Source of the DNA: an uncultured bacterium
GTDB lineage: Bacteria > Methylomirabilota > Methylomirabilia > Rokubacteriales > CSP1-6
Assembly (NCBI GenBank): GCA_964637755.1
Contig: CAZWXA010000032.1
Location: forward strand, 1 to 17,455
Length of the DNA: 17,455 bases
Direction: 5' to 3'
In this document: positions 1 through 17,078 of the stretch, piece after piece
How the letters are laid out: the number at the start of each line of letters is the position of its first letter
Numbering within the stretch: position 1 is the first letter of the stretch
Translations under genes and position numbers: made by a program
Notes under the pieces: model-generated
Database searches by the model: none
What the model saw: the letters and a program-made list of their open reading frames with translations, nothing else
Told to the model about the DNA's origin: nothing

Positions 1-1070
1 CGCGCCAGCACCTCCTCGTTCAGCGTGACGCCGAGGCCCGGCCCGGTCGGCACGGCGACGACGCCGTCGCGGGCGCGGATCGGCTCGGTCAGGAGCGGCG
101 CCTCCAATTCGCCTGTCGGGAACTCCAGCCAGAGGCAGCCGGGGCTCGACGCGATCAGGTGGAGCGTCGCTGCGAGGCCGGGGCCGAAGTAGAAGGAGTG
201 CGGGGCGATCGAGAGGTTGGCCGCGGCGGCGAGGGTGCAGATCTTCTTGAACTGGAGGAGGCCGCCCACCTTGGTCATGCTCGGCTGGAGGATGTCGACC
301 GCGCGAAGGGCGATGATGTCGGCGAACCCCTGCGCGAGCCCCTCGTTCTCCCCGGCCGCCACCGGGGTCTCGAGCGCCGCGCTCACCTCGGCGAGGCCGC
401 GGTAGTCCTCGGGGGGCCACACGGGCTCCTCGAACCAGGCCAGGTTGTAGGGCTCGAAGGCGCGCCCCATGCGGATCGCCTCGCGCGGCGTCCACGGGCA
501 GTTGACGTCGAGCATGATGTCCACCGCCGGGCCCACCGCCTCGCGAGCCACGCGCACCGACTCCACGTCGATCTGGTGGAGCTTGAGGGCGCCGAAGCCG
601 GCGCCGGCGTACTGCCGGCAGGCGGCGGCAACGTCCCCCGGAGTCGTGTAGCGCATGAGACTCGCGTAGGCGCGGATGCCCGACACGCAGCGGCCGCCGA
701 GCAGATCGTGGACCGGGACGTTGCGGGCCTTGCCGGCGAGGTCCCAGAGCGCGATCTCGACGCCGCTCAGCGCGTGGATGGCCAGGCCGCGCCGGCCCCA
801 GAGGAAGATCGCCCGCTCCATCTTGTCGACGAGTCGCTCGATCTCGGTCGGATTCTCGCCGAGGAGGAGCGGCACGAGGCTCTCCTCGACCACGCTCACC
901 ACCGCCAGCGGGGCGCCGTACGCGAAGCACTCCCCGATGCCGACCAGGCCCTCGTCGGTCATGATCTTCACGATGATCTGCTTGGGGATGCCGTCCACCC
1001 AGGGCGAGCGCGGGTGCATGGGCCGGACGGGAACGGCCAGCGGGTAGGCCTTGACACCGGTGATCTTCAT
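1..1070 (-). CDS. Mandelate racemase/muconate-lactonizing enzyme family (enolase superfamily) protein. The start codon is at 1068..1070 and the gene runs off the window start, so the C-terminus is missing.
   Basis: Reverse-complement translation from ATG(1070) reads MKITGVKAYPLAVPVRPMHPRSPWVDGIPKQIIVKIMTDEGLVGIGECFAYG...ALKLHQIDVE...DVNCPWT...WFEEPV...AAGENEGL...DILQPSMTKVGG. These are the characteristic MR/MLE N-terminal capping domain and the KxK/D/E/D metal-ligand TIM-barrel motifs. It is absent from the ORF track because it has no in-window stop. Confidence 0.85.
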   Translation of the reverse strand, partial: MKITGVKAYPLAVPVRPMHPRSPWVDGIPKQIIVKIMTDEGLVGIGECFAYGAPLAVVSVVEESLVPLLLGENPTEIERLVDKMERAIFLWGRRGLAIHALSGVEIALWDLAGKARNVPVHDLLGGRCVSGIRAYASLMRYTTPGDVAAACRQYAGAGFGALKLHQIDVESVRVAREAVGPAVDIMLDVNCPWTPREAIRMGRAFEPYNLAWFEEPVWPPEDYRGLAEVSAALETPVAAGENEGLAQGFADIIALRAVDILQPSMTKVGGLLQFKKICTLAAAANLSIAPHSFYFGPGLAATLHLIASSPGCLWLEFPTGELEAPLLTEPIRARDGVVAVPTGPGLGVTLNEEVLA

Positions 1071-1397: not shown

Positions 1398-2360
1398 ATG
1401 CACAGACGCCTGCTCGCCGCACTCGTCCTTGTCGCCGCGCTCGCCGGGCCGCTCGCGAATGCCCACGCCGCGCTCCGCATCTTCGTGACGAACGAGAAGT
1501 CCGATGACGTCACCGTGATCGACGCCGCGACCGGCGTCGTGGCGAAGACGATCCCGGTCGGCAAGCGGCCGCGCGGCATCACCGTCAGCCCCGACCGCAG
1601 GCACGTGTACGTCTCCAACAGCAACTCGGACAGCGTGTCGGTCATCGACGCGGTGACGCTCGAGGTCGTCAAGACCGCGCCCGCCGGCCTCGACCCGGAA
1701 GGCCTGACCACGACCAAGGATGGCAAGGTCCTCTACGTCGTGAACGAGAACGAGCTGGCGGTGACGATGCTCGAGCTGCCGTCTCTCGGCATCCTGGGCA
1801 AGATCGAGATCGGCACCGAGCCCGAGACCGCGGTCCTCTCCCCGGACGGCAAGTGGGTCGCCGTGTCCCACGAGACCTCGAACGACATCTACGTGATCGA
1901 CACGGCGACGCGCCAGGTGGTCACGAAGATCCCGGTGCCGAAGAACCCGCGCGGGATGCGCTTCACGCCCGACTCCCGGCGCCTGTTCGTCGCGAGCGAG
2001 GGGGCGGACCAGGTCTCCCTCATCGACGTGGCGGGGTGGACGGTGGTGAAGTCGGTCGCCACGGGGGGCGAGCGCCCGGTCGACATCTCCATCTCCGCCG
2101 ATGGGTCGCGAGCGTACGTCTCGCACGGCAAGACCGGCGACATCCGCGTGCTCGACACCCGGTCGCTCGCCGTGCTCGCCACGATTCCCGTGGGGCCGCG
2201 GGCCTGGTGGACGGCGCTGACCCCGGACGGCGCCCTCCTCTACGTGACGGTCGGCCGCGCGAACGAGGTGGTCGCCGTGGATACCCGGTCGAACGCGGTG
2301 GCCCGCCGCATCAAGGCGGGCACGCTCCCCTGGGGGATCGCGATCGTCGACGCCCCCTGA
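1398..2360 (+). CDS. Secreted beta-propeller protein built from YVTN-family repeats (7-bladed lactonase-like propeller fold).
   Basis: The ATG at 1398 is followed by a signal peptide (MHRRLLAALVLVAALAGPLANAHA). Repeated ~40-aa units follow of the type RxxYVxNxxSDxVSVIDxxTxxVVKTIPVGxxPxGI (RIFVTNEKSDDVTVID, HVYVSNSNSDSVSVID, VLYVVNENELAV, DIYVIDTATRQVV, RLFVASEGADQVSLID, RAYVSHGKTGDIRVLD, LLYVTVGRANEVVAVD). The 5' part of ORF 159..2360 is an antisense shadow of the MR/MLE gene. Confidence 0.85.
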   Translation: MHRRLLAALVLVAALAGPLANAHAALRIFVTNEKSDDVTVIDAATGVVAKTIPVGKRPRGITVSPDRRHVYVSNSNSDSVSVIDAVTLEVVKTAPAGLDPEGLTTTKDGKVLYVVNENELAVTMLELPSLGILGKIEIGTEPETAVLSPDGKWVAVSHETSNDIYVIDTATRQVVTKIPVPKNPRGMRFTPDSRRLFVASEGADQVSLIDVAGWTVVKSVATGGERPVDISISADGSRAYVSHGKTGDIRVLDTRSLAVLATIPVGPRAWWTALTPDGALLYVTVGRANEVVAVDTRSNAVARRIKAGTLPWGIAIVDAP

Positions 2361-2547
2361 GCGGGGAGCCGTAGGCCCCTCCCGCGAGGCTCGGGACGAC
2401 CTCCTTGCGCCCGGGTCCGCGCGCGCCCTGATCGCTCGGTTCTTCCGGGCAGCGGGACGGGCCGGGGTGTGCCGCGCTTGATCCTGTGCTGACGCCGGAT
2501 ACCTGCTACTATCCGGTCGTTCCAACGCTTCATTCCGGGGTGCACAA

Positions 2548-3468
2548 GTGCAGATTTCGTCTGGCCAGGCGCGCGGCGCCCGGCGCGCGGTGCTCGTCGT
2601 CCTCGGGATGCTCGTTGCCGGCGTCGCGTGGCTCAGCTTCTTCGCGGTCGAGACCGGCGAGATCGTGGTCGTCACCCAGTTCGGCGATCCCGTCCGGGTG
2701 GTGAGGACGCCCGGGCTCCACGTCAAGTACCCGTCTCCCCTCCAGAGCGTGTCGCGGTTCGACGGCCGGCTCTTCGCCCTCGTCCCGCCCTCCAGCGAGT
2801 TCCTCACTCTCGGCAAGCGGAACGTCATCGCGGCCGGCTTCATCCTCTGGCGCATCGCCGACGCGAAGCGGTTCATGCAGACGGTGTTCGACCGGACCGG
2901 CGCGGAGTCGCGGCTCGGCGACATCCTGTTCGCCGAGCTGGGCGCCGCGCTGGGCCAGGCGCCGCTGTCCGCCTTCGTCTCCGCGGTCCCCGGCGAGTAC
3001 CGGGCCGAGCAGATTCTCGCCGCCGTGACCCGGCAGTACCGGCAGACCGCCCTGCGCGATTACGGGATCGACGTCGTCGACGTCCGCCTTCGCCGGCTCG
3101 ACTTTCCCGAGCAGAACCGGCTCAGCGTGTTCGCCCGGATGAAGTCCGAGCGGGGCCGGGTCAGCATGAAGTACCGGTCCGAGGGCGAGGAGGAGGGCCT
3201 CAAGATCCGCGCGGCCGCCGAGAAGACGAAGAGCGGGATCCTCGGCGAGGCGTACAAGCTGTCGCAGAAGTCCCGCGGCGAGGGCGAGGCCCGGGCGGCC
3301 AGGATCTACGCGGAGAGCCTCGACCGGGCCCCGGCCTTCTACAGGTTCGTGCGCTCGACCGAGGCGGTGAAGAAGGCGGTGGACAAGGAGACGACGCTCG
3401 TGCTGCCCGTCGACTCCGAGCTGTTCGGGCTGCTCTCCGACAGCCGGTTCCGGTTCCCGGAGCCGTGA
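2548..3468 (+). CDS. HflC-like SPFH/band-7 membrane protein (paralog 1).
   Basis: GTG start with GGGGTG about 7 nt upstream, then an N-terminal TM helix (AVLVVLGMLVAGVAWLSFFAV). The C-terminal region FARMKSERGRVSMKYRSEGEEEG...ARIYAESLDRAPAFYRFVRSTEAVKK...LVLPVDSELF matches HflC (E. coli RMRAERE..HRSQGQEE..GEGDAEA..FYAFIRSLRAY...) and the second HflC at 6957. Confidence 0.8.
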   Translation: MQISSGQARGARRAVLVVLGMLVAGVAWLSFFAVETGEIVVVTQFGDPVRVVRTPGLHVKYPSPLQSVSRFDGRLFALVPPSSEFLTLGKRNVIAAGFILWRIADAKRFMQTVFDRTGAESRLGDILFAELGAALGQAPLSAFVSAVPGEYRAEQILAAVTRQYRQTALRDYGIDVVDVRLRRLDFPEQNRLSVFARMKSERGRVSMKYRSEGEEEGLKIRAAAEKTKSGILGEAYKLSQKSRGEGEARAARIYAESLDRAPAFYRFVRSTEAVKKAVDKETTLVLPVDSELFGLLSDSRFRFPEP

Positions 3469-3554
3469 GCCGGGTCGGCCGCAGCGGAGGGGGGTGAGAC
3501 CGGAAGGGCGCGCAGGACAAGGAGTAGACAACGACGTCCACTCTCACGATTCGC

Positions 3555-3560
3555 AAGGAG
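3555..3560 (+). promoter_or_regulatory. Shine-Dalgarno AAGGAG for the formamidase-family gene.
   Basis: AAGGAG lies 8 nt upstream of ATG 3569. Confidence 0.7.
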
Positions 3561-3568
3561 CCGCTGGC

Positions 3569-4603
3569 ATGTTCGACACTCGCATCCTGAAGCTCGTGAC
3601 CTTGGCGCTCGGAGCGCCGGTGCTGTTCGTGCTGCTGCTGGCCCTCCCGGCCGCGGCCGCGACCATCAGATACACCCCGCAGACGGTCTATTACACATAC
3701 TGCTTCTCGCATCCGCCCGCGGCCCGGATCGCGTCCGGCGACACGGTGATCACCAACACCCGCGACGCCTCGAACGATGCCTTCAAGCCGACGGACAAGA
3801 CGGTGGCGGCCGGCAACCTGGACCTCTCCCGGGTGAACCCGCAGACCGGTCCCTTCTACGTCGAGGGCGCCGAGCCCGGCGACACGCTGAAGGTCCACAT
3901 CGACAAGATCGGCTTCAACCGCAGCTGGGGCTGGGGCGGGGCCCTTCCGTACTTCGGGGCGCTCGCGCCCGAGTACAAGACCATGATGGTCACGCCGCCC
4001 GTGCAGGACACGCTCTTCGTTTGGCAGCTCGACGCGGCGCGCAAGATCGGCACCCTGAACATGCCGAAGAGCAAGATCGGCAAGGTCGAGATCCCGCTCC
4101 GTCCGTTCTTCGGGACGATCGGCACGGCGCCGTACGGCAAGGAGTGCATCAGCTCGCTGGTGCCGGGGACGCACGGCGCGAACATGGACTTCAACGAGGT
4201 GGTCGAGGGCGTCACGATGTACTTCCCCGTCTTCGAGAGGGGCGCGCTCTTCATGCTTGGCGACGGCCACGCGGCCCAGGGCGACGGCGAGATCATGGGC
4301 GCCGCCGTCGAGACGTCGTTCGACGTGACGTTCACCGTCGAGGTGATCAAGGGCAAGAAGATCGGCTGGCCGCGACTCGAGAACGACCGCTACATCATGT
4401 CGATCGGCAGCACCCGCCCGCTGATGGACGCGCTCAGGCTCGCCTGCTCCGACCTGATCAACTGGCTCGCCACCGACTACGGCTACGACAAGATAGACGC
4501 CTACCAGCTCCTCGGCCAGCAGGCCATGCTGAAGGTCGCCAACGTCGTCGACCCGCAGTACTCGGTGGCGTGCGCCATCGACAAGAAGTACCTGCCCAGG
4601 TAA
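3569..4603 (+). CDS. Acetamidase/formamidase (FmdA_AmdA) family protein with an N-terminal signal peptide or membrane anchor.
   Basis: MFDTRILKLVTLALGAPVLFVLLLALPAAAA is followed by GPFYVEGAEPGDTLKVHI, GTHGANMDF, LFMLGDGHAAQGDGEI and QYSVACAIDKKY. These are conserved blocks of the FmdA/AmdA fold. A strong RBS precedes the start and the stop is TAA at 4601. Confidence 0.8.
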   Translation: MFDTRILKLVTLALGAPVLFVLLLALPAAAATIRYTPQTVYYTYCFSHPPAARIASGDTVITNTRDASNDAFKPTDKTVAAGNLDLSRVNPQTGPFYVEGAEPGDTLKVHIDKIGFNRSWGWGGALPYFGALAPEYKTMMVTPPVQDTLFVWQLDAARKIGTLNMPKSKIGKVEIPLRPFFGTIGTAPYGKECISSLVPGTHGANMDFNEVVEGVTMYFPVFERGALFMLGDGHAAQGDGEIMGAAVETSFDVTFTVEVIKGKKIGWPRLENDRYIMSIGSTRPLMDALRLACSDLINWLATDYGYDKIDAYQLLGQQAMLKVANVVDPQYSVACAIDKKYLPR

Positions 4604-4701
4604 GGTGAACCGGGCAGCACCTTCGCGGTACCGGGGATCGGTCGCGACGCGGCCGGTCCCCGGCCTCGCTCCCGCCGGCCTGCGAACCGCCGAGGGCCGG
4701 C

Positions 4702-6960
4702 GTGACTGATTTCCTCTTCCAGGTCGCCTGGGAAGCCTGGTTCGTCCTCCGTGAAGCCTCCTTCTTCCTGCTCCTCGGCTTCGTCCTCGCCGGTGTGCTC
4801 GCCGTCCTCGTCCCGTCGGGGCTGCTCACCCGCTTCCTCGGCCGGGGCAAGATCAGGTCCGTCCTCTGGGCCTCGGCCATCGGCACGCCGCTCCCCCTCT
4901 GCTCCTGTGGCGTGCTGCCCACGGCCCTCGCTCTCTCGCGCCAGGGCGCCACCAAGGGGGCCACGGTCTCGTTCCTCATCTCGACGCCGGAGACCGGAAT
5001 CGACTCGATCGCGCTGAGCTACGCGCTCATGGACCCGATCATCACGGTGTTCCGCCCTGTCGCGGCCTTCGTGACCGCCGTCGTCGCGGGCATCGCCACG
5101 AACTTCCTGGGCCCGAAGGAGCCGCCCCCCCCGAGTGCTCCACCCGGAGAAGCAGAGACCTTGCCCCACCCTGGAGACTCGCTGCCCGGGCGAGAACCTG
5201 ACGCCCAGGGGGAGTCGACCGGAACCGACGCGCCGGGAGGCGAGGGGACGGAGCGGGCGGGACGTGATCCCGAGGGGCCGGGACACTCGCACGCGGGATC
5301 TCACGTCCCCCACCTGCCGGTGGACGAGCGTCCCGGCGGGAGGCTCCTCGATCGGTTCACGCGCGTCTTCGGGTACGCCTTCCGCGAGCTGCTCGACGAG
5401 ATCGCCCACTGGCTGGCCCTCGGTGTCGTCCTGGCGGCCCTCGTGTCGGTCCTCCTTCCCCCGTCCGTCATCGAGCGGTATCTGTCCGGCGGCCTCACCA
5501 CGATGCTGGCGATGCTCGCCATCGGCATCCCGATCTACACCTGCGCGTCGGCATCGACGCCGATCGCGGCCGCGCTCGTCCTGAAAGGCCTGAGCCCCGG
5601 CGCCGCGCTGGTCTTCCTGCTCTCCGGCCCCGCGACGAACGTGGGCGCGATCGTGGTGCTCCTGAAGTTCCTGGGACGCCGCGTCGTTCTGATCTACCTC
5701 GCGTCGATCGCGCTCGTCAGCCTGCTCGCCGGGTATGCGCTCGACTGGGTCTACCGGACCTGGCAGGTGAGCCCGGCCGCGAGCTTCGGGAAGGCCTCCG
5801 GTTTCGTCCCCGAGCAGGTCAAGGTCGCTGCCGGCGTGCTGCTGATCGGACTGCTCCTCGTGAGCTTCTGGCGCGCGCCGATCCCCGGGGAGTGGCTGCG
5901 CGTGCGCGACTGGCTCCACGCGGTGACCGGCGTGCGCCTGACCGCTCGGCGGCTCGCGGCCGCCACCGCCGCCTTCGCCGGCGCGCTCTACCTCGGCAGC
6001 GGGGTGTTCACCGTCGAGCCCGGGGAGGTCGCGCTGCGGACGCGCTTCGGCCGCCTCGTGGGCGCTCCACTCGAGCCCGGGTTCCACCTCCGCCTGCCCT
6101 GGCCCGTCGAGGCGCACCGGGTGCTCCAGCGCGAGCGCATCCGCCGGATCGAGGTCGGGTTCCGGAGCGCGCCGCGGCAGGACAGCGTCGAGCGCGCGTT
6201 TGCCCAGGGGCGACTCACGCTCGCCGGCCCCGGCAACCCGGTGCCGCCCGGCGGGTCGACGGGGTTCTGGTTCCAGAAGGAGAAGGTCTCCGAGGAGTCG
6301 TTCCTGCTCACGGGGGACGAGAACATCCTCGACATCGCGTTCACGGCGCAGTACCAGGTCAAGAACCCGGTCGCCTACGCCTACGGTCTGGCGGATCCCG
6401 ACACGGTCGTGCGGAGCGTGACGGTCGCCGCCCTGCGGGCCGCCGTGGCCACGATGACCGTCGACGTGCTCTACACGAGCGGGCGCGAGGAGGTGGAGCG
6501 GAGGGTCCTGCGGGCGGCGCAGGAGTCCCTCGACGCCTACCAGGCGGGGGTGAGGATGCTCGCCGTCAGCCTGCTCAGCGTGCATGCCCCGGAAGAGGTG
6601 CACGCGGCATTCCGGGACGTGGCGAGCGCGCAGGAAGACAAGATCCTGATCGTCGACCGCGCCACGACGTTCGCGCAGGAAGCCGTCAACCTGGCGGACG
6701 GCGACGCCGCCGCCATGGTCGAATCGGCGCTGGCCTTCAAGGAACAGAAGATCCTGGAGGCCGAGGGCGACGCGTTCGCCTTCAGTCTCCGGGAGAAGGA
6801 ATACCGCCGCGCGCCCGGCGTGACCCGCTTCCGCCTGCAGGTCGAGGCCCTGGAGGAGGTCCTGCCGGCCGCCCAGAAGATCCTGCGACCCGGCCGCGCC
6901 GATCTGAAGGACTTCGACCTCTGGCTGCTCGAGCCGCCGGGGGCGAAGAAGGGCCGGTGA
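4702..6960 (+). CDS. Fusion protein: a two-repeat ArsP/DUF318-type permease (residues ~1-360) joined to an HflK-like SPFH domain (C-terminal ~390 residues).
   Basis: The GTG start is followed by hydrophobic repeat 1 with GTPLPLCSCGVLP (ArsP-like CxC motif). A Pro/Glu/Gly/His-rich loop follows (PPPPSAPPGEAETLPHPGD...GPGHSHAGSHVPH). Repeat 2 carries IPIYTCASASTPIAAAL...LLSGPATNVGAIVV. A TM helix (AATAAFAGALYLGSGVFTV) and an HflK SPFH domain follow (VEPGEVALRTRFGR...FRDVASAQEDKI...EAEGDAFAF...RFRLQVEALEEVL). There is a single uninterrupted frame of 752 codons. Confidence 0.75.
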   Translation: MTDFLFQVAWEAWFVLREASFFLLLGFVLAGVLAVLVPSGLLTRFLGRGKIRSVLWASAIGTPLPLCSCGVLPTALALSRQGATKGATVSFLISTPETGIDSIALSYALMDPIITVFRPVAAFVTAVVAGIATNFLGPKEPPPPSAPPGEAETLPHPGDSLPGREPDAQGESTGTDAPGGEGTERAGRDPEGPGHSHAGSHVPHLPVDERPGGRLLDRFTRVFGYAFRELLDEIAHWLALGVVLAALVSVLLPPSVIERYLSGGLTTMLAMLAIGIPIYTCASASTPIAAALVLKGLSPGAALVFLLSGPATNVGAIVVLLKFLGRRVVLIYLASIALVSLLAGYALDWVYRTWQVSPAASFGKASGFVPEQVKVAAGVLLIGLLLVSFWRAPIPGEWLRVRDWLHAVTGVRLTARRLAAATAAFAGALYLGSGVFTVEPGEVALRTRFGRLVGAPLEPGFHLRLPWPVEAHRVLQRERIRRIEVGFRSAPRQDSVERAFAQGRLTLAGPGNPVPPGGSTGFWFQKEKVSEESFLLTGDENILDIAFTAQYQVKNPVAYAYGLADPDTVVRSVTVAALRAAVATMTVDVLYTSGREEVERRVLRAAQESLDAYQAGVRMLAVSLLSVHAPEEVHAAFRDVASAQEDKILIVDRATTFAQEAVNLADGDAAAMVESALAFKEQKILEAEGDAFAFSLREKEYRRAPGVTRFRLQVEALEEVLPAAQKILRPGRADLKDFDLWLLEPPGAKKGR

Positions 6961-7853
6961 CCCCGCTCCGCCGGACGCTCGCGGTCTCGGTCGCCCTCCT
7001 GCTGGGGCTCGCGCTCTGGTCGTCCTTCATGGTCGTCGACGTGACGGAGTACGCCATCCTCACGCGCCTGGGGAGGGTGGTCCGCGTCGTCAGGGAGCCG
7101 GGCCTCGGCGTCAAGCTCCCGTATCCCCTCGAACGGGTGATCCGCCTGGACCGGCGCCTGCTGACCTTCAAGCCCGGGAGTGCCGAGTACCTGAGCGACG
7201 ACAAGAAGAATCTCGTGATCCACAGCCTCGTGACCTGGCGGATCGCGAACCCGGAGCGGTTTCTCGCGACGGTGGGCGGGCGAGCGGCCGCCCAGGAACG
7301 GGTCGCCGATCTGGTGCTCACGAAGATCGGCGCCGTCGTCGGCAGCCATCCCGCCTCGGCCCTCGTCGGGGTCGATGGGCAGGCCTCGCGGTTCAGCCAG
7401 GTCATGGACCGGATCCTGACGGAGGCTCGCGACAGGGCGCTCGCGGATTACGGCGTCGACCTCGTCGACGTCCGGCTCCGCCAGCTCGGGCTGCCGGAGC
7501 AGAACCGGGCCAACGTCTTCGCGCGCATGCAGGCAGAGCGGGGCAAGATCGCGATGAAGTACCGCTCCGAGGGCGAGCGAGAGTTCAAGAAGGTCGTCGC
7601 CCAGGCCGAGCACGAGAAGACGCGAACCGTGGCGGAGGCGTACCGCGAGGCGGAGCGGGCCAAGGCCGAAGGGGACGCCCAGGCCATGCGGATCTACGCC
7701 GAGGCCTTCGGCAAGAACCCCCAGTTCTACAAGTTCCGGCGCACCCTCCAGGCCTACGAGAAGATCCTCGACGCCAACACCACCGTCTTTCTCCCGGCGG
7801 ACGCGGAAATCTTCCAGATCCTGAACAGCCGGAGATCCGGCGTGGGGAAGTAG
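6957..7853 (+). CDS. hflC: HflC (SPFH/band-7 protease-modulator subunit), paralog 2.
   Basis: The GTG at 6957 overlaps the upstream stop (GTGA), which implies translational coupling. An N-terminal TM helix is present. The translation includes RLGRVVRVVREPGLGVKLPYP...FARMQAERGKIAMKYRSEGEREF...AEGDAQAMRIYAEAFGKNPQFYKFRRTLQAYEKIL...VFLPADAEIF. The upstream part of ORF 5892..7853 is out-of-frame shadow. Confidence 0.85.
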   Translation: MTPLRRTLAVSVALLLGLALWSSFMVVDVTEYAILTRLGRVVRVVREPGLGVKLPYPLERVIRLDRRLLTFKPGSAEYLSDDKKNLVIHSLVTWRIANPERFLATVGGRAAAQERVADLVLTKIGAVVGSHPASALVGVDGQASRFSQVMDRILTEARDRALADYGVDLVDVRLRQLGLPEQNRANVFARMQAERGKIAMKYRSEGEREFKKVVAQAEHEKTRTVAEAYREAERAKAEGDAQAMRIYAEAFGKNPQFYKFRRTLQAYEKILDANTTVFLPADAEIFQILNSRRSGVGK

Positions 7854-7856
7854 GCG

Positions 7857-8921
7857 ATGGACCCGCGAGGCGAGGACTCCCGAGGGGAATCCGCAGGCGG
7901 GACGCCGGACGCCGCTGGCGCCGGGGGGCCGGCGTCCAGGGGGCCGGAGACCGGCCACCCGGTGCCGGGGACTCCGGAGGCCGGGCGGCGCTCGCGGCTG
8001 ACCCGCTACGTCTCCGGCCGCAGTGGCCGATGGCTCGCCGGGCTCGGCGCCCTGGTCGTCGCGGGCTACCTGCTGACCGGCGTCTTCACGGTGGCCGCGG
8101 ACCAGCAAGCGGTGGTGCGCCGGTTCGGGCGGGTCGTGGGCCGCCTCGGACCCGGCATCCACTACCGCTTCCCCCGGCCCGTGGATCGGGTCGACGTTCT
8201 CCGCACCACCACCGTCATGAAGACCGGCGTCGGGTTCGAGCTGCCGGAGGGCGAGGGGCAAACCGTGACCGGCATGGAGATCATGACCGGCGACACCAAC
8301 ATCATCAGCGTGGCACTGGCGCTCCAGTACGTCGTCCGCAACCCGGCCGCGTTCCTCTTCGAGGTCGAGAACCCGCCGGCCCTCATCGGCAGCGTGGCCG
8401 AGTCGGTGCTGACGGAGACCGTTCTCGGCATGCCCGTCGACGAGGTCCTCACCACCGGGCGCCTGGCGATCCAGGATCGCGTCAAGGTCCGCACCCAGGC
8501 GATCCTCGACCGCTACGGCAGCGGTGTCCTGCTCACCTCCGCCAGCATCATGGCGATCACCCTCGACAGCTCGGTGGCCCAGGCCTTCCAGGACGTCGCC
8601 AACGCGGGCGCCGATCGCGAGCGCAAGATCAACGAAGGCCGCGCCTACGCCAACGACCTCCTGCCCAGGGCGCGGGGCGAGGCCCGCTCGACGGTGCTCG
8701 CCGCCCAGAGTTACCGGGATCAGCGGGTCGCAGAGGCCGTCGGCAACACCACGCGCTTCCTCGACCTGCTCGCCGAGTACGCGAAGGCGCCCGAGGTCAC
8801 CCGGACGCGCCTCTACTTCGAGGCGATGGAGAAGATCCTGCCCCGGGTGAAGAAGTACGTCATCGATTCCGAGCACGGCCAGAAGCCGGTCAATCTCCGC
8901 CTCAGCCCGCCTCAGCCGTGA
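7857..8921 (+). CDS. hflK: HflK (SPFH/band-7 protease-modulator subunit).
   Basis: ATG lies 3 nt after the hflC stop, with GGGGAAG as RBS. A disordered N-terminal tail is followed by a TM helix (LAGLGALVVAGYLLTGVF) and an SPFH domain. The segment ...NEGRAYANDLLPRARGEARSTVLAAQSYRD...RFLDLLAEYAKAPEVTRTRLYFEAMEKILP closely matches E. coli HflK (YANDILPRARGDA...ERLYIETMEKVL). Confidence 0.85.
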   Translation: MDPRGEDSRGESAGGTPDAAGAGGPASRGPETGHPVPGTPEAGRRSRLTRYVSGRSGRWLAGLGALVVAGYLLTGVFTVAADQQAVVRRFGRVVGRLGPGIHYRFPRPVDRVDVLRTTTVMKTGVGFELPEGEGQTVTGMEIMTGDTNIISVALALQYVVRNPAAFLFEVENPPALIGSVAESVLTETVLGMPVDEVLTTGRLAIQDRVKVRTQAILDRYGSGVLLTSASIMAITLDSSVAQAFQDVANAGADRERKINEGRAYANDLLPRARGEARSTVLAAQSYRDQRVAEAVGNTTRFLDLLAEYAKAPEVTRTRLYFEAMEKILPRVKKYVIDSEHGQKPVNLRLSPPQP

Positions 8922-9051
8922 CCCTGCGACATGAGTCGGGGCGCATTCCGCGAAGAGGTCAAGACGAGGGCTTCGCCCGCGCCGGCCAGGCGGCCGTGTC
9001 AAAGCCTTCAGGCAGGCGGCTGAAGTCGCGCGGGATGCTGGCCGGTGGCGA

Positions 9052-9057
9052 TAGAAT
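9052..9057 (+). promoter_or_regulatory. Candidate -10 hexamer TAGAAT, positioned to make the small ORF transcript leaderless.
   Basis: TAGAAT ends 7 nt before ATG 9065. There is no convincing -35 and no SD between them. This is speculative. Confidence 0.25.
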
Positions 9058-9064
9058 CGAAGCG

Positions 9065-9289
9065 ATGCCCGACGAGTCGTCCGACCAAGCCGCCGAGCGG
9101 CTGCGCCTCGCGCTCGAGCTGTGCGCGGTCGGGGAAGCGATGATGCGCCAGCGACTCCGGCGCGAGCATCCCGATGCCGACGAGCCGGAGATCGAGCGCC
9201 GCCTGACGGAATGGTTTCTGGAGCGGCCCGGTGCCGAGGGCGGTGATGCCGTCGGCAGGCCGGTGTCGTGGCCGCGCCCGGATCGCTGA
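9065..9289 (+). CDS. Small hypothetical protein (~74 aa), a putative cognate partner (antitoxin-like) of the downstream nucleotidyltransferase.
   Basis: MPDESSDQAAERLRLALELCAVGEAMMRQRLRREHPDADEPEIERRLTEWFLERPGAEGG... is predicted helical and charged. The ORF overlaps the next gene by 22 nt. An alternative ATG exists at 9035. The rest of ORF 8030..9289 is an out-of-frame shadow of hflK. Confidence 0.5.
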   Translation: MPDESSDQAAERLRLALELCAVGEAMMRQRLRREHPDADEPEIERRLTEWFLERPGAEGGDAVGRPVSWPRPDR

Positions 9290-9885
9290 GCCGGGTCGAA
9301 ACCGCTCTCAAGCGGATCCAGGGCGACCTCGAGGGCCTCGACCGTCGCTGGGCGCTCCTGGGTGGCCTGGCGGTCTCGGCCCGGGCGGAACCGAGATTCA
9401 CGCGCGACGCGGACCTTGCGGTCCTCGTGGCCGATGACCGTGACGCTAAGCGGCTCGTGCTCGTGCTTCGGGATCGCGGCTACCGGGTCATCTCGGCGAT
9501 GGAGCAGGAGGCGACCGGGCGCCTGGCCGCGGTCCGGCTGGCGCCGCCGGGCGAGATAGAGCAGGGTGTGGTTGTCGACCTCCTGTTCGGGTCATCGGGG
9601 ATCGAGCCGGAAATCGTCATGGCGGCGGAGCCGCTCGAGATCCTGCCCGGGCTCCGCGTTCCCGTCGCTCGACTTGGCCATCTGCTCGGGCTCAAGCTGC
9701 TCGCGCGCGACGACCGCACTCGGCCGCAGGACCGCGCCGATCTCGTCGCCCTCCTCGCCCGGGCGGATCGGGCGGCGATCGATCTGGCTCGGAACGCGCT
9801 CACGCTGATCACGAACCGCGGCTTCCATCGCGGGCGGGACTTGCTCGCCGATCTCGACTCACTGATCGCCCAGGGGAGCGGGTAG
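9268..9885 (+). CDS. Nucleotidyltransferase-fold protein, AbiEii/MNT-like (type IV TA toxin-like family).
   Basis: LLGGLAVSARAEPRFTRDADLAV fits the GG[ST]A..R.T.D.D(l) nucleotidyltransferase signature. It is followed by VVVDLLFGSSGIEPEIV...LPGLRVPVARLGHLLGLKLLARDDRTRPQDRADLVAL. The GTG start overlaps the upstream small ORF. Confidence 0.55.
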   Translation: MAAPGSLSRVETALKRIQGDLEGLDRRWALLGGLAVSARAEPRFTRDADLAVLVADDRDAKRLVLVLRDRGYRVISAMEQEATGRLAAVRLAPPGEIEQGVVVDLLFGSSGIEPEIVMAAEPLEILPGLRVPVARLGHLLGLKLLARDDRTRPQDRADLVALLARADRAAIDLARNALTLITNRGFHRGRDLLADLDSLIAQGSG

Positions 9886-10036
9886 GCGGAGGCACCGAAT
9901 ACGAGCCGAGCCCTCGGCGCCACCGCGAGAGCCTGACCACGCGCGTTCCGGAGCATCGGAAGACTCGACGTCCGAGAGGGGCCCCCTCGCCCCGGTGAGG
10001 CCACGGCACCGCCAGGCTGCCCGCCCGGGCAATCAC

Positions 10037-10061
10037 TTGACTTCCGGGAGGGTTTCCCGGA
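10037..10061 (+). promoter_or_regulatory. TTGACT hexamer followed by the inverted repeat TCCGGGA-N5-TCCCGGA. This is a candidate promoter/operator of the U32 operon.
   Basis: TTGACT lies at 10037..10042 and the IR arms at 10043..10049 and 10055..10061, about 15 nt upstream of the U32 start. No clear -10 is present. Confidence 0.25.
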
Positions 10062-10075
10062 GCCTGGCAACGACG

Positions 10076-10984
10076 ATGGCGACGCTGCTCGCGCCCGCGG
10101 GAAGCCCGGAAGCCCTGGAAGCCGCCCTCGATGCCGGCGCCGATGCGGTGTACGTGGGCTTGAAGGGCTTCAGCCGGGGCGGGGCCCGGGGCGAGCTCGA
10201 CTGGGACGAGCTGGCCCGGGGCGCTGGGCTCTCGGCCAGCCGGGGAGCGGAGACCCAGGTCGCTCTCAACACCATCCCCAGGCCGGGGGAGCGCGCCCGG
10301 CTCCTCGATCAGGTCCCCCGCCTGCTCGCCCTGGGCGTGCGGACCCTGATCGTCAACGACCCGGGAATCCTGGCGGCGCTCCGCCGCGAGTTTCCCGGGC
10401 TCGCGCTGACGGCCAGCATCGGCTGCGGCGCCCAGACCGAGGCGGACGTGGCGTTCTTCAGGGAGATCGGGGCCGGCGCGGTGGTGCTGCCGGGGACGAT
10501 CGGCCCCGCCGAGGCGGAGGCCTGCTGCCGGGTGCGAGGGATCGCCGTCGAGATCATGCTGCACATGGTCGAGGAGTTCGTGCTCCTCGGGAAGTGCTGG
10601 ATGCCGAGCTACGTCCATCTGAAACCCACGGCGATGCCCGGAGCGGGCGAGGGGGCGCTGCGCCAGACCGGCAGCATGAAGCGCGGCGGCGTCGGCGCGT
10701 GCTTCAGGATTTGCCAGGAGCCCTGGCGGCTTGAGAATGCCCGCGGACTGACGGCGGAAGTGACGTTTCCGAGCCGGCAGCTCAGCCGGCTCGACGACGT
10801 GCGGGGATACCTGTCGGCCGGTGTCGCGGTGCTGAAGCTCCAGGGCCGGAGCCTCCCGCCGCACCTGCTCGGCCCGCTGGTGGCACGATACCGCCGCGCG
10901 ATCGACGCCGCGCTCGGACAGGAGCCCCCCCCCGACTTTCCGGAGCCGGCGCTCCTCCCGTCGTGGACCGTGGTGGGACGTTGA
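10076..10984 (+). CDS. Peptidase U32 family protein (paralog 1; UbiU-like with a variant Cys pattern).
   Basis: MATLLAPAGSPEALEAALDAGADAVYVGLKGF is the hallmark U32 N-terminus. The Cys-containing blocks are SIGCGAQ, EACCRV, LLGKCWMPSY and GACFRICQEP. The terminal LKLQGRS motif is present. A TTG at 10037 is an alternative start. Confidence 0.8.
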   Translation: MATLLAPAGSPEALEAALDAGADAVYVGLKGFSRGGARGELDWDELARGAGLSASRGAETQVALNTIPRPGERARLLDQVPRLLALGVRTLIVNDPGILAALRREFPGLALTASIGCGAQTEADVAFFREIGAGAVVLPGTIGPAEAEACCRVRGIAVEIMLHMVEEFVLLGKCWMPSYVHLKPTAMPGAGEGALRQTGSMKRGGVGACFRICQEPWRLENARGLTAEVTFPSRQLSRLDDVRGYLSAGVAVLKLQGRSLPPHLLGPLVARYRRAIDAALGQEPPPDFPEPALLPSWTVVGR

Positions 10985-11934
10985 CCGCATTCGAGCTCAA
11001 CACCTCGATCTCGAACCTCGGAGACCTGCGCGCCTCCGATCTCGGTCCCTATGATGCCGTCTACCTCGGCAACATCTTCTGCCGGCTCTACGAGGCGAAC
11101 TTCCTCGAGCGGCCGGCGGACCTCGGGGAGGGCCTGCGCATCGTGCGGGATCAGGGCAAACGCGCCTACCTGACCACCTACGCCGCGCCGCGCAACGACT
11201 TCCTGCCCCGGCTGCGGAAGGTGCTCGAGACGGCGGCGGCCGAGGGGGCGGAGGCGGTCGAGGTGCACAACCTCGGCGTCCTCAAGATCGTTCACGACGA
11301 GTTCCCGGGGCTGCCGGTCCACGTGGGGGGCTTCGCCAACGTGTACACCGACGCGGGCGCCGAGGTCCTCAAGGGCTTCGGAGCGGCGCGCATCACCCCC
11401 AACTACGAGCTCCACCTCGACGAGGTCGACCAGATCGCGCGCGACTGCGGGATCGCCATGGAGCTGCTGGTCCACGGGAAGATGCCGCTCGGCGTCTCCG
11501 ACTATTGCTTCCTGCTCGAGTACGAGGACAAGTGGGGCATCAGGTGCCCGGACCTCTGCCAGCAGGACCTCTTCCTCCGCAAGGAGGACTGGGGCATGAA
11601 GTCCGTCGGCAAGGGCGTGCTGAGCGGCAAGGACGTCTGCATGCTCGACCACCTGGCTCGCCTGCTCGGCGGCGGCCACCGCCATTTCAGGATCGAGGCA
11701 GTCTCGGAGACTCCCGCGTATCGCCACGAGGTCGGCCGGGTCTACCGGGAGGCGCTTGGGCAGGCGCTGTCCGGCGAGTACCGGCAGGACGAGACGTGGT
11801 GGGAGACCGTGCGGAGGCACTCGCGGCTCGGCCTCTGCAACGGCTTCTACTTCGGGACGAGCGGCATGGATTACCTGGGTGCCGGACCGGGCGCCGCGGC
11901 CGCCTTCCTCCAGATGCCGCGGCCGGACCCATGA
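10963..11934 (+). CDS. Peptidase U32 family protein (paralog 2; UbiV-like).
   Basis: YDAVYLGNIFCRLYE is similar to UbiV ADVIYLGEAVCSKR. SDYCFLLEYEDKWGIRCPDLCQQD gives C-x12-C-x3-C, the same pattern as the UbiV Fe-S ligands. A GTG at 10963 (22-nt overlap) or a TTG at 10981 (TTGA overlap) indicates coupling to paralog 1. Confidence 0.8.
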   Translation: MDRGGTLTAFELNTSISNLGDLRASDLGPYDAVYLGNIFCRLYEANFLERPADLGEGLRIVRDQGKRAYLTTYAAPRNDFLPRLRKVLETAAAEGAEAVEVHNLGVLKIVHDEFPGLPVHVGGFANVYTDAGAEVLKGFGAARITPNYELHLDEVDQIARDCGIAMELLVHGKMPLGVSDYCFLLEYEDKWGIRCPDLCQQDLFLRKEDWGMKSVGKGVLSGKDVCMLDHLARLLGGGHRHFRIEAVSETPAYRHEVGRVYREALGQALSGEYRQDETWWETVRRHSRLGLCNGFYFGTSGMDYLGAGPGAAAAFLQMPRPDP

Positions 11935-13098: not shown

Positions 13099-13614
13099 CT
13101 ACTTCGCTGCCGCGTCCTTGAATGTCCGCACGTATTCCGTAAGCTGCCACCGCCTCTCTTCCGGCAGGAACATGCCCCAGGCCGGCATGCCGCCCCACCC
13201 GTTGCTGATCTTCCAGAACAGCTCGCCCTCCGTCTGCGCCTGGACGATCGGCGCGCCGATGTTGACTGCGGGAACGCCCTGCTTGAGGACCACGTATCCC
13301 TTGCCGTCGCCCGCTGGCCCGTGGCATCCGTCGCAGTAGATCTCGTAGGTGGTCTTGCCGGCCTGGATCACGTTGGGCGTGATCGGGAACGGCGGCTTCA
13401 GCTCCTTCGCCTCCGGCGGTGCCACCCAGCGCGTGATCAGGCACTTCGCATAGGCCTGGGCGAGCTCGGCGTTGTGGCAGGCGGTGCAGGCCAGGATCGG
13501 CTTGGCGCAATCCACCTCCCTGGCCGGAGTGTCCTGGGCGCGGCTCGCCGCCGCCGCCGACAGGGCGAGCACGGCCACCGCTGCCCCGACGATCCATCGA
13601 CCTCGACGTGTCAT
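13099..13614 (-). CDS. Di-haem c-type cytochrome with a signal peptide.
   Basis: Two CxxCH motifs (CTACH, CDGCH). The N-terminus MTRRGRWIVGAAVAVLALSAAAASRAQD is a signal peptide. The strong RBS AGGGGGAA lies 5-6 nt upstream of the start, on the minus strand at 13618..13625. Confidence 0.8.
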   Translation of the reverse strand: MTRRGRWIVGAAVAVLALSAAAASRAQDTPAREVDCAKPILACTACHNAELAQAYAKCLITRWVAPPEAKELKPPFPITPNVIQAGKTTYEIYCDGCHGPAGDGKGYVVLKQGVPAVNIGAPIVQAQTEGELFWKISNGWGGMPAWGMFLPEERRWQLTEYVRTFKDAAAK

Positions 13615-15139: not shown

Positions 15140-15146
15140 GGGGGAG
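15140..15146 (+). promoter_or_regulatory. Shine-Dalgarno GGGGAGG for the amidohydrolase gene, preceded by the AT-rich patch TCTCTAATCTAATCTCTAAACGTT (15112..15135).
   Basis: The SD ends 6 nt before ATG 15153. The AT-rich patch carries the overlapping repeat TCTAATC/TAATCTC. It is the only AT-rich element in about 1 kb and is a candidate promoter or operator. Confidence 0.55.
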
Positions 15147-15152
15147 GCAGGG

Positions 15153-16658: not shown

Positions 16659-16680
16659 TCACCCGCCCGAGCGCTCCCTG

Positions 16681-17060: not shown

Positions 17061-17078
17061 CCTTCGCGAATTTTCCGG

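What the first reader, a model, noticed from the sequence alone, without database searches (positions are those of the whole stretch)
2548..8921. Expanded SPFH (HflK/HflC) cluster: two HflC paralogs, two HflK domains, a secreted formamidase-family enzyme and a permease-HflK fusion in one co-directional block
Canonical hflKC is a two-gene pair whose products form a membrane cage around FtsH. Here five tightly spaced + strand genes run HflC-like, FmdA/AmdA, permease~HflK, HflC, HflK. The gaps are about 100, 98, -4 and 3 nt, with a GTGA start-stop overlap at 6957..6960. The paralogs are clearly diverged, so this is not an assembly duplication. A duplicated K/C set that includes a transporter-fused HflK and an extracytoplasmic amidase is not a described arrangement. 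It suggests a dedicated SPFH microdomain or cage organised around a specific transporter or enzyme rather than around FtsH.
Basis: partly seen in the sequence, partly recalled or inferred. Interest (0 to 1): 0.8.

Follow-up and report, generated by a model that had tools for sequence, protein, structure and literature searches.

The report
Metal exporter fused to HflK scaffold
This is a real, widely conserved but undescribed gene cassette in which a zinc/copper-type metal exporter is fused to one member of a dedicated set of HflK/HflC membrane-scaffold proteins, so it names a likely client for a bacterial SPFH "cage" other than the FtsH protease.

Summary
Five co-directional genes encode HflC1 (2548-3468), an exported FmdA/AmdA-fold hydrolase (3569-4603), a permease::HflK1 fusion (4702-6960), HflC2 (6957-7853) and HflK2 (7857-8921), with gaps of 100, 98, -4 and 3 nt.

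The permease is an SO_0444-family Cu/Zn efflux transporter. The cassette is not a one-off. The fusion defines a large family: 117 of the top 150 cluster representatives at 50% identity carry both parts. In every locus read that was long enough, the fusion is followed by HflC and a second HflK. This trio occurs in more than ten bacterial lineages and its three genes co-diverge.

In two other lineages a non-homologous CDF metal exporter sits at the same fusion position. Trio loci are repeatedly embedded among ZnuABC, ZIP, CDF, MerC and P-type ATPase genes. The five-gene form, which adds HflC1 and the hydrolase, was seen in Methylomirabilota-type contigs, a Bradyrhizobium isolate and a Burkholderiales MAG.

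Best reading: a dedicated SPFH scaffold built around a divalent-metal exporter for zinc or copper homeostasis, with the periplasmic metallohydrolase as a probable client. Assembly, FtsH independence, metal identity and transport direction are untested. The closest precedent is the Zur-regulated PA2439-PA2434 operon of P. aeruginosa. I rate this a new variant of a known kind.

The parts
2502..2513 (+). Conserved -10-like element CCTGCTACTATC upstream of the first gene. TTGATC lies at 2478-2483, 23 nt upstream.
   Evidence: The same CTTGAT(T/C)C ... CCTGCTA(C/G)TATC string lies upstream of HflC1 in L002, L004 and L005 (window sequence). In those loci the spacer is 16 nt; in the window it is 23 nt. 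The generic promoter scan found nothing. Function is untested.
2548..3468 (+). HflC1, an extra HflC paralog of 306 aa with one N-terminal TM helix.
   Evidence: TIGR01932 162.5 bits against a cut-off of 134.4, and Band_7. TM at residues 14-32. It forms its own clade with 100% bootstrap, found only in five-gene cassettes.
3569..4603 (+). Exported FmdA/AmdA-fold hydrolase of 344 aa. It is the most conserved protein of the cassette.
   Evidence: PF03069 128.6 bits; formamidase equivalog only 83 bits against a cut-off of 500. Best solved relative is 5UBU, 'putative acetamidase/formamidase', E 3e-58, with the HGANMD and GDGHAAQGDGE motifs aligned. N-terminal hydrophobic segment at residues 6-24 followed by AAAA. 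It is 71-81% identical to cassette orthologs, against 50-76% for the other parts. AAGGAG lies before the ATG.
4702..5886 (+). Permease domain of the fusion, residues 1-395: an SO_0444-family Cu/Zn efflux transporter with CSC and CASASTP motifs and a His-rich central loop.
   Evidence: NF033936 383.9 bits against a cut-off of 300; PF03773 150.6 bits. C67, C69 and C281 are invariant and S68 is nearly invariant across 20 diverse fusions. The loop carries HSHAGSHVPH.
5887..6960 (+). Cytoplasmic linker (conserved P-x-E-W), one TM helix (residues 418-436) and the HflK1 SPFH plus coiled-coil domain of the fusion.
   Evidence: TIGR01933 176.9 bits against a cut-off of 159.4, residues 435-728. The loop before the TM has 6 K/R. 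The AlphaFold2 model shows an SPFH fold plus long helices. The best PDB matches are E. coli HflK chains 7vhq_E, 9cz2 and 7wi3_B. P395, E397 and W398 are invariant in 64 homologs.
6957..7853 (+). HflC2, 298 aa. Its start overlaps the stop of the fusion gene (GTGA).
   Evidence: TIGR01932 191.8 bits. Overlap seen; the same 4-nt overlap occurs in L004.
7857..8921 (+). HflK2, a free HflK paralog of 354 aa with a 62-residue cytoplasmic N-terminus and one TM helix.
   Evidence: TIGR01933 216.2 bits. TM at residues 63-81. It groups with E. coli HflK in the NJ tree, although K2 monophyly has only 24-26% bootstrap support.

Best explanation
The block is one conserved cassette of an uncultured Methylomirabilota (Rokubacteria)-type bacterium.

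Core module. The core is a three-gene module found in many bacterial lineages. A divalent-metal exporter, here an SO_0444-type Cu/Zn efflux permease, is covalently joined through a short cytoplasmic linker and a single TM helix to an HflK-type SPFH protein (K1). An HflC (C2) and a second, free HflK (K2) follow.

Proposed mechanism. I propose that K1, C2 and K2 co-assemble into an HflK/HflC-type ring or vault on the periplasmic face of the inner membrane. The K1 subunits would hold the exporter inside, or in the wall of, that ring. The scaffold would then confine and control the exporter as part of zinc (possibly copper) homeostasis.

Five-gene form. Here a further HflC paralog (C1) and an exported, very strongly conserved FmdA/AmdA-fold hydrolase were added. 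The literature describes this fold as bi-zinc. The enzyme is most likely a periplasmic client that works next to, or receives its metal from, the caged exporter.

Shown: gene content and junctions; family assignments; conservation and co-divergence of the trio; replacement of the permease by CDF exporters at the same fusion point; metal-transport neighbourhoods.

Inferred: co-assembly into one cage; topology (SPFH and enzyme both periplasmic); zinc as the metal; export as the direction; any link between enzyme and exporter.
For: 1. Family assignments are above curated cut-offs for all four SPFH domains and for the SO_0444 exporter. SO_0444 itself was assigned Cu/Zn efflux from mutant fitness and complementation (PMC3219624).

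2. The fusion is a large, old family. More than 120 clusters at 90% identity match at 56-78% identity, most over the full length of the query. Of the top 150 representatives at 50% identity, 117 carry both parts in the same order. Full-length fusions occur in Bradyrhizobium erythrophlei and in MAGs labelled Burkholderiales, Zixiibacteriota, Tectimicrobiota, Myxococcota, Planctomycetota, Phycisphaerae, Eiseniibacteriota, Thermoanaerobaculia, Holophagales and 'delta proteobacterium'.

3. All 20 fusion loci read have an HflC directly downstream on the same strand, and 19 also have an HflK; the twentieth contig ends first. None of 65 stand-alone SO_0444 loci has an SPFH gene nearby.

4. K1, C and K2 trees are congruent. 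Pairwise-distance correlations are 0.82-0.95 over 15 loci.

5. Non-homologous displacement occurs. In L086-L089 a roughly 215-aa CDF exporter replaces the permease, fused in frame to K1 within the same five-gene cassette. On the Aquibium oceanicum B7 conjugative plasmid a 515-aa protein annotated 'HflK' is Cation_efflux plus Band_7, followed by HflC and HflK.

6. Neighbourhoods point to metal homeostasis.
- L018: ZIP, CDF, trio, ZnuA, ZnuB.
- L037: ZnuA, CDF, M23 peptidase, trio, ABC ATPase.
- L015: ZIP, trio.
- L011: MerC next to the trio.
- Aquibium: Nramp, trio, P-type ATPase, PCuAC, SCO, CopD.

7. Topology. The loop before the K1 TM helix is K/R-rich. HflK/C SPFH domains face the periplasm (PMC2636767; structures matched). 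The hydrolase has a conserved signal or anchor.

8. The FmdA fold is described as related to a bi-zinc formamidase. The hydrolase is the most conserved cassette protein.

9. Precedent. P. aeruginosa PA2439-PA2434 encodes three SPFH genes plus the HmtA metal ATPase. It is induced by zinc depletion and its promoter is bound by Zur.
Against: - Nothing here shows that the proteins assemble together or exclude FtsH.
- Only about 5 of 11 trio loci have metal-transport neighbours recognisable from Pfam hits. The window itself has no metal regulator or recognisable Zur box.
- Support for a single K1 clade is only 48% bootstrap, and the Aquibium fusion may be independent.
- The substrate and direction of SO_0444-type permeases rest on one organism.
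- The P. aeruginosa partner HmtA is reported as an importer and its operon responds to zinc limitation, so direction and purpose could differ.
- Deleting PaFlo5-7 gave only marginal phenotypes.
- Most trio loci lack the hydrolase, so the enzyme cannot be the general client.
- The His-rich loop is present in only some orthologs.
Confidence: 0.55

Rival explanations
1. FtsH-centred reading. K2 and C2 (with or without C1) are the organism's ordinary FtsH modulators. The K1 fusion simply places the exporter inside the FtsH-HflKC cage, so that its abundance is set by regulated proteolysis or quality control.
For: All four SPFH domains pass the HflK/HflC equivalog cut-offs. E. coli HflK groups with the K2 sequences, and the best structural matches are HflK in FtsH complexes. 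HflKC is known to control FtsH access to membrane substrates (established knowledge; abstracts listed).
Against: No ftsH, hfq or hflX gene lies near any of the loci whose gene tables were read. The trio occurs on a conjugative plasmid and in IS-rich islands. P. aeruginosa keeps a canonical hflKC in addition to its three-gene SPFH operon. The E. coli-type models PRK10930 and PRK11029 are far below cut-off.
Confidence: 0.2
2. Zinc-limitation (acquisition or sparing) module rather than efflux. As in the P. aeruginosa HmtA operon, the cassette is derepressed when zinc is scarce. The transporter moves metal inward, or redistributes it to periplasmic zinc enzymes, rather than detoxifying.
For: Trio loci sit beside uptake systems: ZnuA/ZnuB and ZIP. 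A TonB-dependent receptor lies upstream in L010, and the gene upstream in L017 ends in a sequence I read as receptor-like. PA2439-PA2434 is Zur-bound and induced 5-14 fold in a znuA mutant.
Against: Both fused transporter families, SO_0444 and CDF, are known as exporters from the cytoplasm (established knowledge for CDF). CDF and MerC neighbours also occur. No Zur box was found.
Confidence: 0.15
3. Loose co-location. The SPFH genes are general membrane-stress proteins and the FmdA-like enzyme is an unrelated periplasmic amidase for nitrogen scavenging. The fusion has no special mechanistic meaning.
For: SPFH proteins often give weak phenotypes. The FmdA family includes true formamidases and acetamidases.
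Against: The order fusion-HflC-HflK is retained in every locus long enough to show it, across many lineages. There is a 4-nt translational overlap. The genes co-diverge. Unrelated exporters were recruited independently at the same junction. The hydrolase and C1 are linked in every five-gene locus.
Confidence: 0.08
4. Assembly or annotation artefact: a chimeric contig, or a false fusion caused by a missed stop.
For: None found. Some related contigs do carry frameshifts (L086, L089).
Against: The fusion ORF is uninterrupted. More than 100 independent clusters reproduce it end to end, including an isolate genome and a finished plasmid.
Confidence: 0.01

Closest known systems
E. coli HflK/HflC-FtsH complex (SPFH3 subfamily; PDB 7VHQ, 7WI3, 9CZ2)
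   Same: The same protein families, above the TIGR01933 and TIGR01932 cut-offs. An adjacent K and C gene pair. An N-terminal TM helix followed by a periplasmic SPFH domain and coiled coil. The fusion's C-terminal half matches E. coli HflK best.
   Different: Three or four paralogs instead of two. One HflK carries an 8-10 TM metal exporter at its N-terminus. There is no hfq-hflX or ftsH linkage. Identity to E. coli is only 29-31%, and the enterobacterial models are not met. The client is inferred to be a transporter, not a protease.
P. aeruginosa PA2439-PA2434 (PaFlo5-7 plus HmtA), a Zur-regulated operon
   Same: Three SPFH genes (HflK family, HflC, HflC family) are co-transcribed with a heavy-metal transporter. 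The locus is linked to zinc homeostasis.
   Different: The transporter is a separate P-type ATPase reported as an importer, not a fused SO_0444 or CDF exporter. No FmdA-like gene is reported. Sequence homology to K1, C and K2 could not be tested here, so this is a lead and not a membership.
SO_0444 Cu/Zn efflux protein of Shewanella oneidensis (NF033936)
   Same: The permease domain scores 384 bits against a cut-off of 300 and keeps the Cys-Ser-Cys motif.
   Different: Stand-alone SO_0444 genes have no SPFH partner (65 of 65 loci). SO_0444 sits with a ZntR-like regulator, and none is seen here.
SPFH proteins that bind channels or transporters non-covalently (stomatin-aquaporin 1, PDB 9ZD2; flotillin-associated rhodopsin)
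   Same: An SPFH oligomer is associated with a specific membrane transport protein (one search hit list; PMC10308929 abstract).
   Different: Those are separate polypeptides on the cytoplasmic face and from other SPFH subfamilies. Here the link is a covalent fusion in the periplasm-facing HflK/C subfamily, with additional free subunits.
SPFH-NfeD operons (QmcA-YbbJ, PH1511-PH1510)
   Same: A dedicated operon partner for an SPFH scaffold.
   Different: There is no NfeD here. The partners are a metal exporter and an amidohydrolase-fold enzyme.

Membership tests
HflK (TIGR01933, SPFH3a) | Sequence model score above the curated equivalog cut-off | tested here: met
   K1 domain 176.9 bits and K2 216.2 bits against a cut-off of 159.4.
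HflK (TIGR01933, SPFH3a) | N-in single TM helix, then a periplasm-facing SPFH domain and long coiled-coil helices | tested here: met
   Hydropathy and the positive-inside rule. The AF2 model has an SPFH fold plus helices 630-720. Best PDB matches are E. coli HflK chains. The orientation itself is inferred.
HflK (TIGR01933, SPFH3a) | Binds FtsH and modulates it together with HflC | not testable with these tools
   No ftsH gene lies within about 10 kb in the loci whose gene tables were read. Interaction cannot be assessed from sequence.
HflK / HflC, enterobacterial orthologs (PRK10930, PRK11029) | Score above the curated cut-off of the full-length E. coli-type models | tested here: not met
   130-140 bits against 660 for HflK, and 132-157 bits against 427 for HflC.
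HflC (TIGR01932, SPFH3b) | Sequence model above cut-off, with an adjacent hflK | tested here: met
   C1 162.5 bits and C2 191.8 bits against a cut-off of 134.4. C2 overlaps K1 and lies 3 nt from K2.
SO_0444 family Cu/Zn efflux transporter (NF033936) | Score above cut-off and a conserved Cys-Ser-Cys motif | tested here: met
   383.9 bits against 300. PLCSCGV: C67 and C69 are invariant and S68 is nearly invariant in diverse fusions. The motif is described.
SO_0444 family Cu/Zn efflux transporter (NF033936) | Confers copper or zinc tolerance by efflux | not testable with these tools
   Known only for Shewanella SO_0444.
FmdA/AmdA acetamidase/formamidase family (PF03069) | Pfam gathering score and family motifs | tested here: met
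   128.6 bits against 27. HGANMD and GDGHAAQGDGE align with 5UBU and 2II1.
Formamidase FmdA (NF045496 equivalog) | Score above the equivalog cut-off | tested here: not met
   83.1 bits against 500. The nearest solved relatives are all uncharacterised 'putative' enzymes.
P. aeruginosa PA2439-PA2434 type Zur-regulated SPFH/metal-transporter operon | Three SPFH paralogs in one operon with a heavy-metal transporter | tested here: met
   The order K1 (fused to the exporter), C, K2 occurs in all loci long enough to show it.
P. aeruginosa PA2439-PA2434 type Zur-regulated SPFH/metal-transporter operon | Sequence orthology of the SPFH proteins to PA2437-PA2439 | not tested
P. aeruginosa PA2439-PA2434 type Zur-regulated SPFH/metal-transporter operon | Zur box and induction by zinc depletion | tested here: inconclusive
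   No AT-rich palindrome was found upstream in the trio loci L015, L017, L018 and L037, and none is evident in the aligned upstream regions of the window and its relatives. The Zur motif of these phyla is unknown.

The most novel reading that the evidence does not exclude
The K1/C/K2 proteins, plus C1 in the five-gene form, build a closed periplasmic vault over the fused exporter. Metal pumped out of the cytoplasm would be released into a confined chamber that also holds the exported FmdA-fold di-zinc hydrolase. This would be a dedicated periplasmic metallation or reaction compartment, shielding an enzyme from mis-metallation. It would be the first SPFH cage with a defined non-protease enzymatic cargo.
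Probability: 0.15. Interest if true: 0.9.

Novelty: new variant of a known kind. Interest (0 to 1): 0.68.

Why it matters
What SPFH cages enclose, and why, is the central open question raised by the recent HflK/C, stomatin, prohibitin, flotillin and erlin structures.

- A natural covalent fusion names the client. The same fusion point was used by two unrelated exporter families, which argues that the function (metal export), not the fold, is what the scaffold needs.
- The system occurs in cultured, tractable hosts: Bradyrhizobium erythrophlei GAS478 and the Aquibium oceanicum B7 plasmid. The idea can therefore be tested directly by genetics, metal analysis and cryo-EM.
- It could also explain the unexplained Zur-regulated SPFH operon of P. 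aeruginosa.
- It could point to a way bacteria supply or control metals for periplasmic enzymes.

Tried and rejected
- Apparent HflC1-FmdA fusion proteins (P0300, P0515) looked like Rosetta-stone evidence. Both come only from a protein-level soil assembly (SRC), while the genomic members of the same cluster are plain 306-318 aa HflC. I treat them as probable chimeras.
- Plasmid hits to K1 and K2 were mostly ordinary two-gene hflK-hflC pairs (Roseibium, Vibrio). Only the Aquibium plasmid carried the trio.
- The generic sigma-70 and terminator scan of 2300-9400 gave nothing above shuffles.
- A search for AT-rich palindromes (Zur-box-like) upstream of four trio loci found nothing convincing.
- Literature searches found no description of the fusion or cassette. 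The terms covered HflK/permease/fusion/efflux, SPFH plus cation diffusion facilitator, and Rokubacteria plus HflK. The 2009 SPFH survey mentions no transporter fusion.
- A Kimura-corrected bootstrap failed numerically, and a slower script timed out. I replaced them with Poisson distances.
- The AlphaFold2 monomer of the fusion reached only pLDDT 68 and pTM 0.50. I used it only for the fold of the C-terminal half.

Full report
**1. What is in the window**

The window has about 70% G+C. From 2548 to 8921 it carries five + strand genes. I read the junctions directly from the sequence.
- HflC1 runs 2548-3468.
- After a 100-nt gap, the second gene starts at ATG 3569 behind an AAGGAG site. The longer ORF from 3494 is not the real start: orthologs are 343-344 aa.
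- After a 98-nt gap, the third gene starts at GTG 4702.
- Its stop overlaps the GTG of the fourth gene in GTGA at 6957-6960.
- The fifth gene starts 3 nt after the fourth ends.

**2. Family assignments**

| Gene | Assignment | Score (cut-off) |
|---|---|---|
| g1 | HflC, TIGR01932 | 162.5 (134.4) |
| g2 | FmdA_AmdA, PF03069 | 128.6 (27) |
| g2 | formamidase equivalog | 83 (500), not met |
| g3, residues 13-387 | SO_0444-family Cu/Zn efflux transporter, NF033936 | 383.9 (300) |
| g3, residues 435-728 | HflK, TIGR01933 | 176.9 (159.4) |
| g4 | HflC | 191.8 |
| g5 | HflK | 216.2 |

- SO_0444 was assigned copper/zinc efflux from Shewanella mutant fitness and complementation. Its Cys-Ser-Cys signature is present here: C67 and C69 are invariant and S68 nearly invariant among diverse fusions.
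- The paralogs are old. C1/C2 are 42% identical, K1/K2 33%, and each is about 29-31% identical to its E. coli counterpart.
- Hydropathy gives one N-terminal TM helix for C1, C2 and K2. It gives a hydrophobic signal or anchor for the hydrolase, and a K/R-rich loop before the single TM helix that precedes the K1 SPFH domain. That is the HflK topology, N-in with the SPFH domain in the periplasm.
- An AlphaFold2 model of the fusion is of moderate quality (pLDDT 68). It shows an SPFH fold and long helices in the C-terminal half. The best solved matches are E. coli HflK chains in HflK/C and FtsH-HflK/C structures.

**3. It is a conserved cassette, not a curiosity of one contig**

- The fusion protein has more than 120 database clusters at 56-78% identity with the same two Pfam domains, most matching over the full query. 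Sources name them Methylomirabilota or Rokuibacteriota, 'HflK protein' or 'SO_0444 family Cu/Zn efflux transporter'.
- Four independent gene neighbourhoods were read in detail: L001, L002, L003 and L004/L005. All show Band_7, FmdA_AmdA, ArsP_1+Band_7, Band_7, Band_7 in the same order, with different flanks. One of them tolerates an IS insertion between the first two genes.
- An exhaustive HMMER search of 1.84 billion representatives found 117 of the best 150 proteins, down to 31% identity, with both parts in the same order.
- A scan of one genome per species recovered full-length fusions in the isolate Bradyrhizobium erythrophlei GAS478. It also recovered them in MAGs labelled Burkholderiales, Zixiibacteriota, Tectimicrobiota, Myxococcota, Planctomycetota, Phycisphaerae, Eiseniibacteriota, Thermoanaerobaculia, Holophagales and 'delta proteobacterium'.

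**4. The core is a trio**

I called ORFs in 20 fusion loci and classified them with the window's proteins.
- Every locus has an HflC immediately after the fusion, on the same strand.
- Nineteen also have an HflK after that. The twentieth contig (L014) ends first.
- The upstream HflC1 plus hydrolase pair is present only in L001-L005 and in the Burkholderiales MAG (L006) and Bradyrhizobium (L007) loci.
- None of 65 loci with a stand-alone SO_0444 permease has any SPFH gene nearby.

In neighbour-joining trees:
- K and C separate with 100% bootstrap support.
- The cassette HflCs form a clade (82%), with C1 (100%) and C2 (85%) as sub-clades.
- The fused K1 domains group together, but only at 48%.
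- E. coli HflK falls among the K2 sequences.
- The three gene trees have the same shape. Pairwise distances correlate at r = 0.82-0.95.

So the genes are inherited, and probably function, as a unit.

**5. The transporter can be swapped, and that is the most informative result**

- The hydrolase ortholog P0362 is 75% identical to the window's. It sits in an IS-rich island where the gene after it is a CDF (Cation_efflux) exporter. The C-terminus of that exporter continues into the K1 TM helix and SPFH domain.
- In L086 the reading frame is broken inside the SPFH domain. In L089 the CDF-to-K1 junction is in frame.
- The CDF part is 80-90% identical to stand-alone 215-aa CDFs, so this replacement is recent.
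- Independently, the finished conjugative plasmid of Aquibium oceanicum B7 encodes a 515-aa protein annotated 'HflK'. It is a complete Cation_efflux domain plus Band_7, followed by HflC and HflK.

Two unrelated families of cytoplasm-to-periplasm metal exporters therefore occupy the same fusion position. What the scaffold is selected to hold is a metal exporter.

**6. The neighbourhoods say zinc, or more broadly transition metals**

- L018: ZIP, CDF, trio, ZnuA and ZnuB, all on one strand.
- L037: ZnuA, CDF, an M23 metallopeptidase, the trio, then an ABC ATPase.
- L015: ZIP directly upstream.
- L011: a MerC-family gene next to the trio.
- L010: a TonB-dependent receptor upstream.
- Aquibium island: Nramp, the trio, a PPIase, a heavy-metal P-type ATPase, PCuAC, SCO, DsbB, a thioredoxin-domain protein and CopD.

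The central loop of the window's permease carries HSHAGSHVPH. Several orthologs have long His-Asp runs, but most do not.

**7. The hydrolase**

- It is the best conserved protein of the cassette, at 71-81% identity where the SPFH and permease parts are 50-76%. Top database hits reach 90%.
- Its closest solved relatives are uncharacterised 'putative acetamidase/formamidase' structures (5UBU, 2II1, 3TKK, 2F4L). The family motifs align.
- A review relates this fold (2WKN) to a bi-zinc formamidase.
- It is not a formamidase by the curated model, so its substrate is unknown.
- Its export signal puts it on the same side of the membrane as the SPFH domains.

**8. What is known**

- I found no paper describing a transporter-HflK fusion or this cassette.
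- The nearest precedent is P. aeruginosa PA2439-PA2434. It encodes an HflK-family gene, an HflC gene, an HflC-family gene, a hypothetical gene, the P-type ATPase HmtA and another hypothetical gene.
  - Its genes are induced 5-14 fold in a znuA mutant.
  - Its proteins rise in zinc depletion.
  - Its promoter is bound by Zur.
  - The same genes are PaFlo5-7 in PA14. There deletion gave only marginal phenotypes and no link to zinc was drawn.
- I could not obtain those sequences, so homology to K1, C and K2 is a lead and not a result.
- Non-covalent SPFH-transporter pairs (stomatin-aquaporin 1, flotillin-associated rhodopsin) are further analogies.

**9. Interpretation**

Most likely (about 0.55): a dedicated HflK/C-type scaffold built around a divalent-metal exporter and serving zinc or copper homeostasis.
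- K1 would be the tether.
- C2 and K2 would be the bulk subunits.
- In this lineage, C1 and the exported metallohydrolase would be accessory client components.

Alternatives that remain open:
- an FtsH-centred version in which the cage controls exporter turnover (about 0.2);
- a zinc-limitation, acquisition-type role as in Pseudomonas (about 0.15).

The most novel reading still allowed is a closed periplasmic metallation chamber for the hydrolase. I put it at about 0.15.

Untested here: co-assembly, stoichiometry, FtsH independence, metal identity, transport direction and regulation.

**10. Verdict**

It is not unique, but it is undescribed. Novelty: a new variant of a known kind. Interest: 0.68.

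Noticed in passing
window 9035-9289 (+) and 9268-9885 (+): A type IV toxin-antitoxin pair lies directly after HflK2: an Rv0078B-related antitoxin (PF18993, 86.5 bits) overlapping an AbiEii nucleotidyltransferase toxin (PF08843). It is absent from the related cassette loci read, so it is probably a local insertion.
   Followed up: partly
window 9995-10984, 10963-11934, 12039-12998 (+): Three tandem Peptidase_U32-family genes, the first two overlapping. This is the family that includes the UbiU/UbiV-type O2-independent hydroxylases (my recollection, not tested).
   Followed up: no
window 3-1070 (-) and 1398-2360 (+): An MR_MLE (enolase-superfamily) gene and a secreted 320-aa YVTN beta-propeller lie just upstream of the cassette. 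The propeller scores 261 bits on PQQ_ABC_repeats, below the 287 cut-off, with a weak AztD zinc-chaperone hit. The same two neighbours precede the cassette in L004 and L005. Thioredoxin-NHL propeller proteins precede the trio in two Planctomycetota loci.
   Followed up: partly
window 13740-15160: A stretch of about 75% G+C without a convincing gene. A 473-aa minus-strand ORF has only fragmentary hits: 31 residues of ELFV_dehydrog_N and part of ABC_sub_bind. It may be pseudogene debris.
   Followed up: no
window 13099-13614 (-), 15012-16658 (+), 16662-17087 (-), 17246-17455 (-): A c-type cytochrome (Cytochrome_CBB3 domain). An Amidohydro_2 protein that is also near the cassette in L004 and L005. 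A fragment of a DDE transposase. A Cys-rich repeat ORF running off the window end.
   Followed up: no
L003 7732-8828: An IS element (HTH_33/DDE_3 transposase) is inserted between HflC1 and the hydrolase gene, yet the rest of the cassette is intact.
   Followed up: no
L086-L088 (7277-10811) and L089 (2325-6259): The CDF-type cassettes carry frameshifts: HflC1 and the SPFH part of CDF::K1 in L086, and the CDF part in L089. In L089, HflC2 and HflK2 are called as one 659-aa ORF. The loci are surrounded by recombinase, resolvase and IS genes. These are either decaying copies on a mobile island or long-read sequencing errors.
   Followed up: partly
proteins P0300 and P0515: 588-592 aa proteins join HflC1 in frame to the mature hydrolase, without its signal peptide. 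They are found only in the SRC protein-level soil assembly, so they are probably chimeras. If real, they would be direct evidence that HflC1 and the enzyme interact.
   Followed up: partly
L091 (Aquibium oceanicum B7 plasmid NZ_CP018172.1, 16552-29195): The CDF::HflK-HflC-HflK trio is followed by a PPIase, a heavy-metal P-type ATPase, PCuAC, SCO, DsbB and a thioredoxin-domain protein. This is the tool-kit for loading copper into periplasmic enzymes rather than simple detoxification. An IS3-like transposase sits just upstream.
   Followed up: partly
window 5113-5367 (permease residues 138-222): The central cytoplasmic loop is hypervariable in length (37-86 residues). It is His-rich only in the window and in the more distant orthologs P0107-P0119 (HTHTHDHDH, HDHGHDHDRGH).
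   Followed up: yes
window g3 residues 488-528 (nt 6163-6285): The K1 SPFH domain has an insertion of about 40-48 residues relative to the HflK model and to K2. It contains AGPGNPVP and FWFQKE, has low pLDDT, and is retained in the CDF::K1 of L089 but not in the Aquibium fusion.
   Followed up: no
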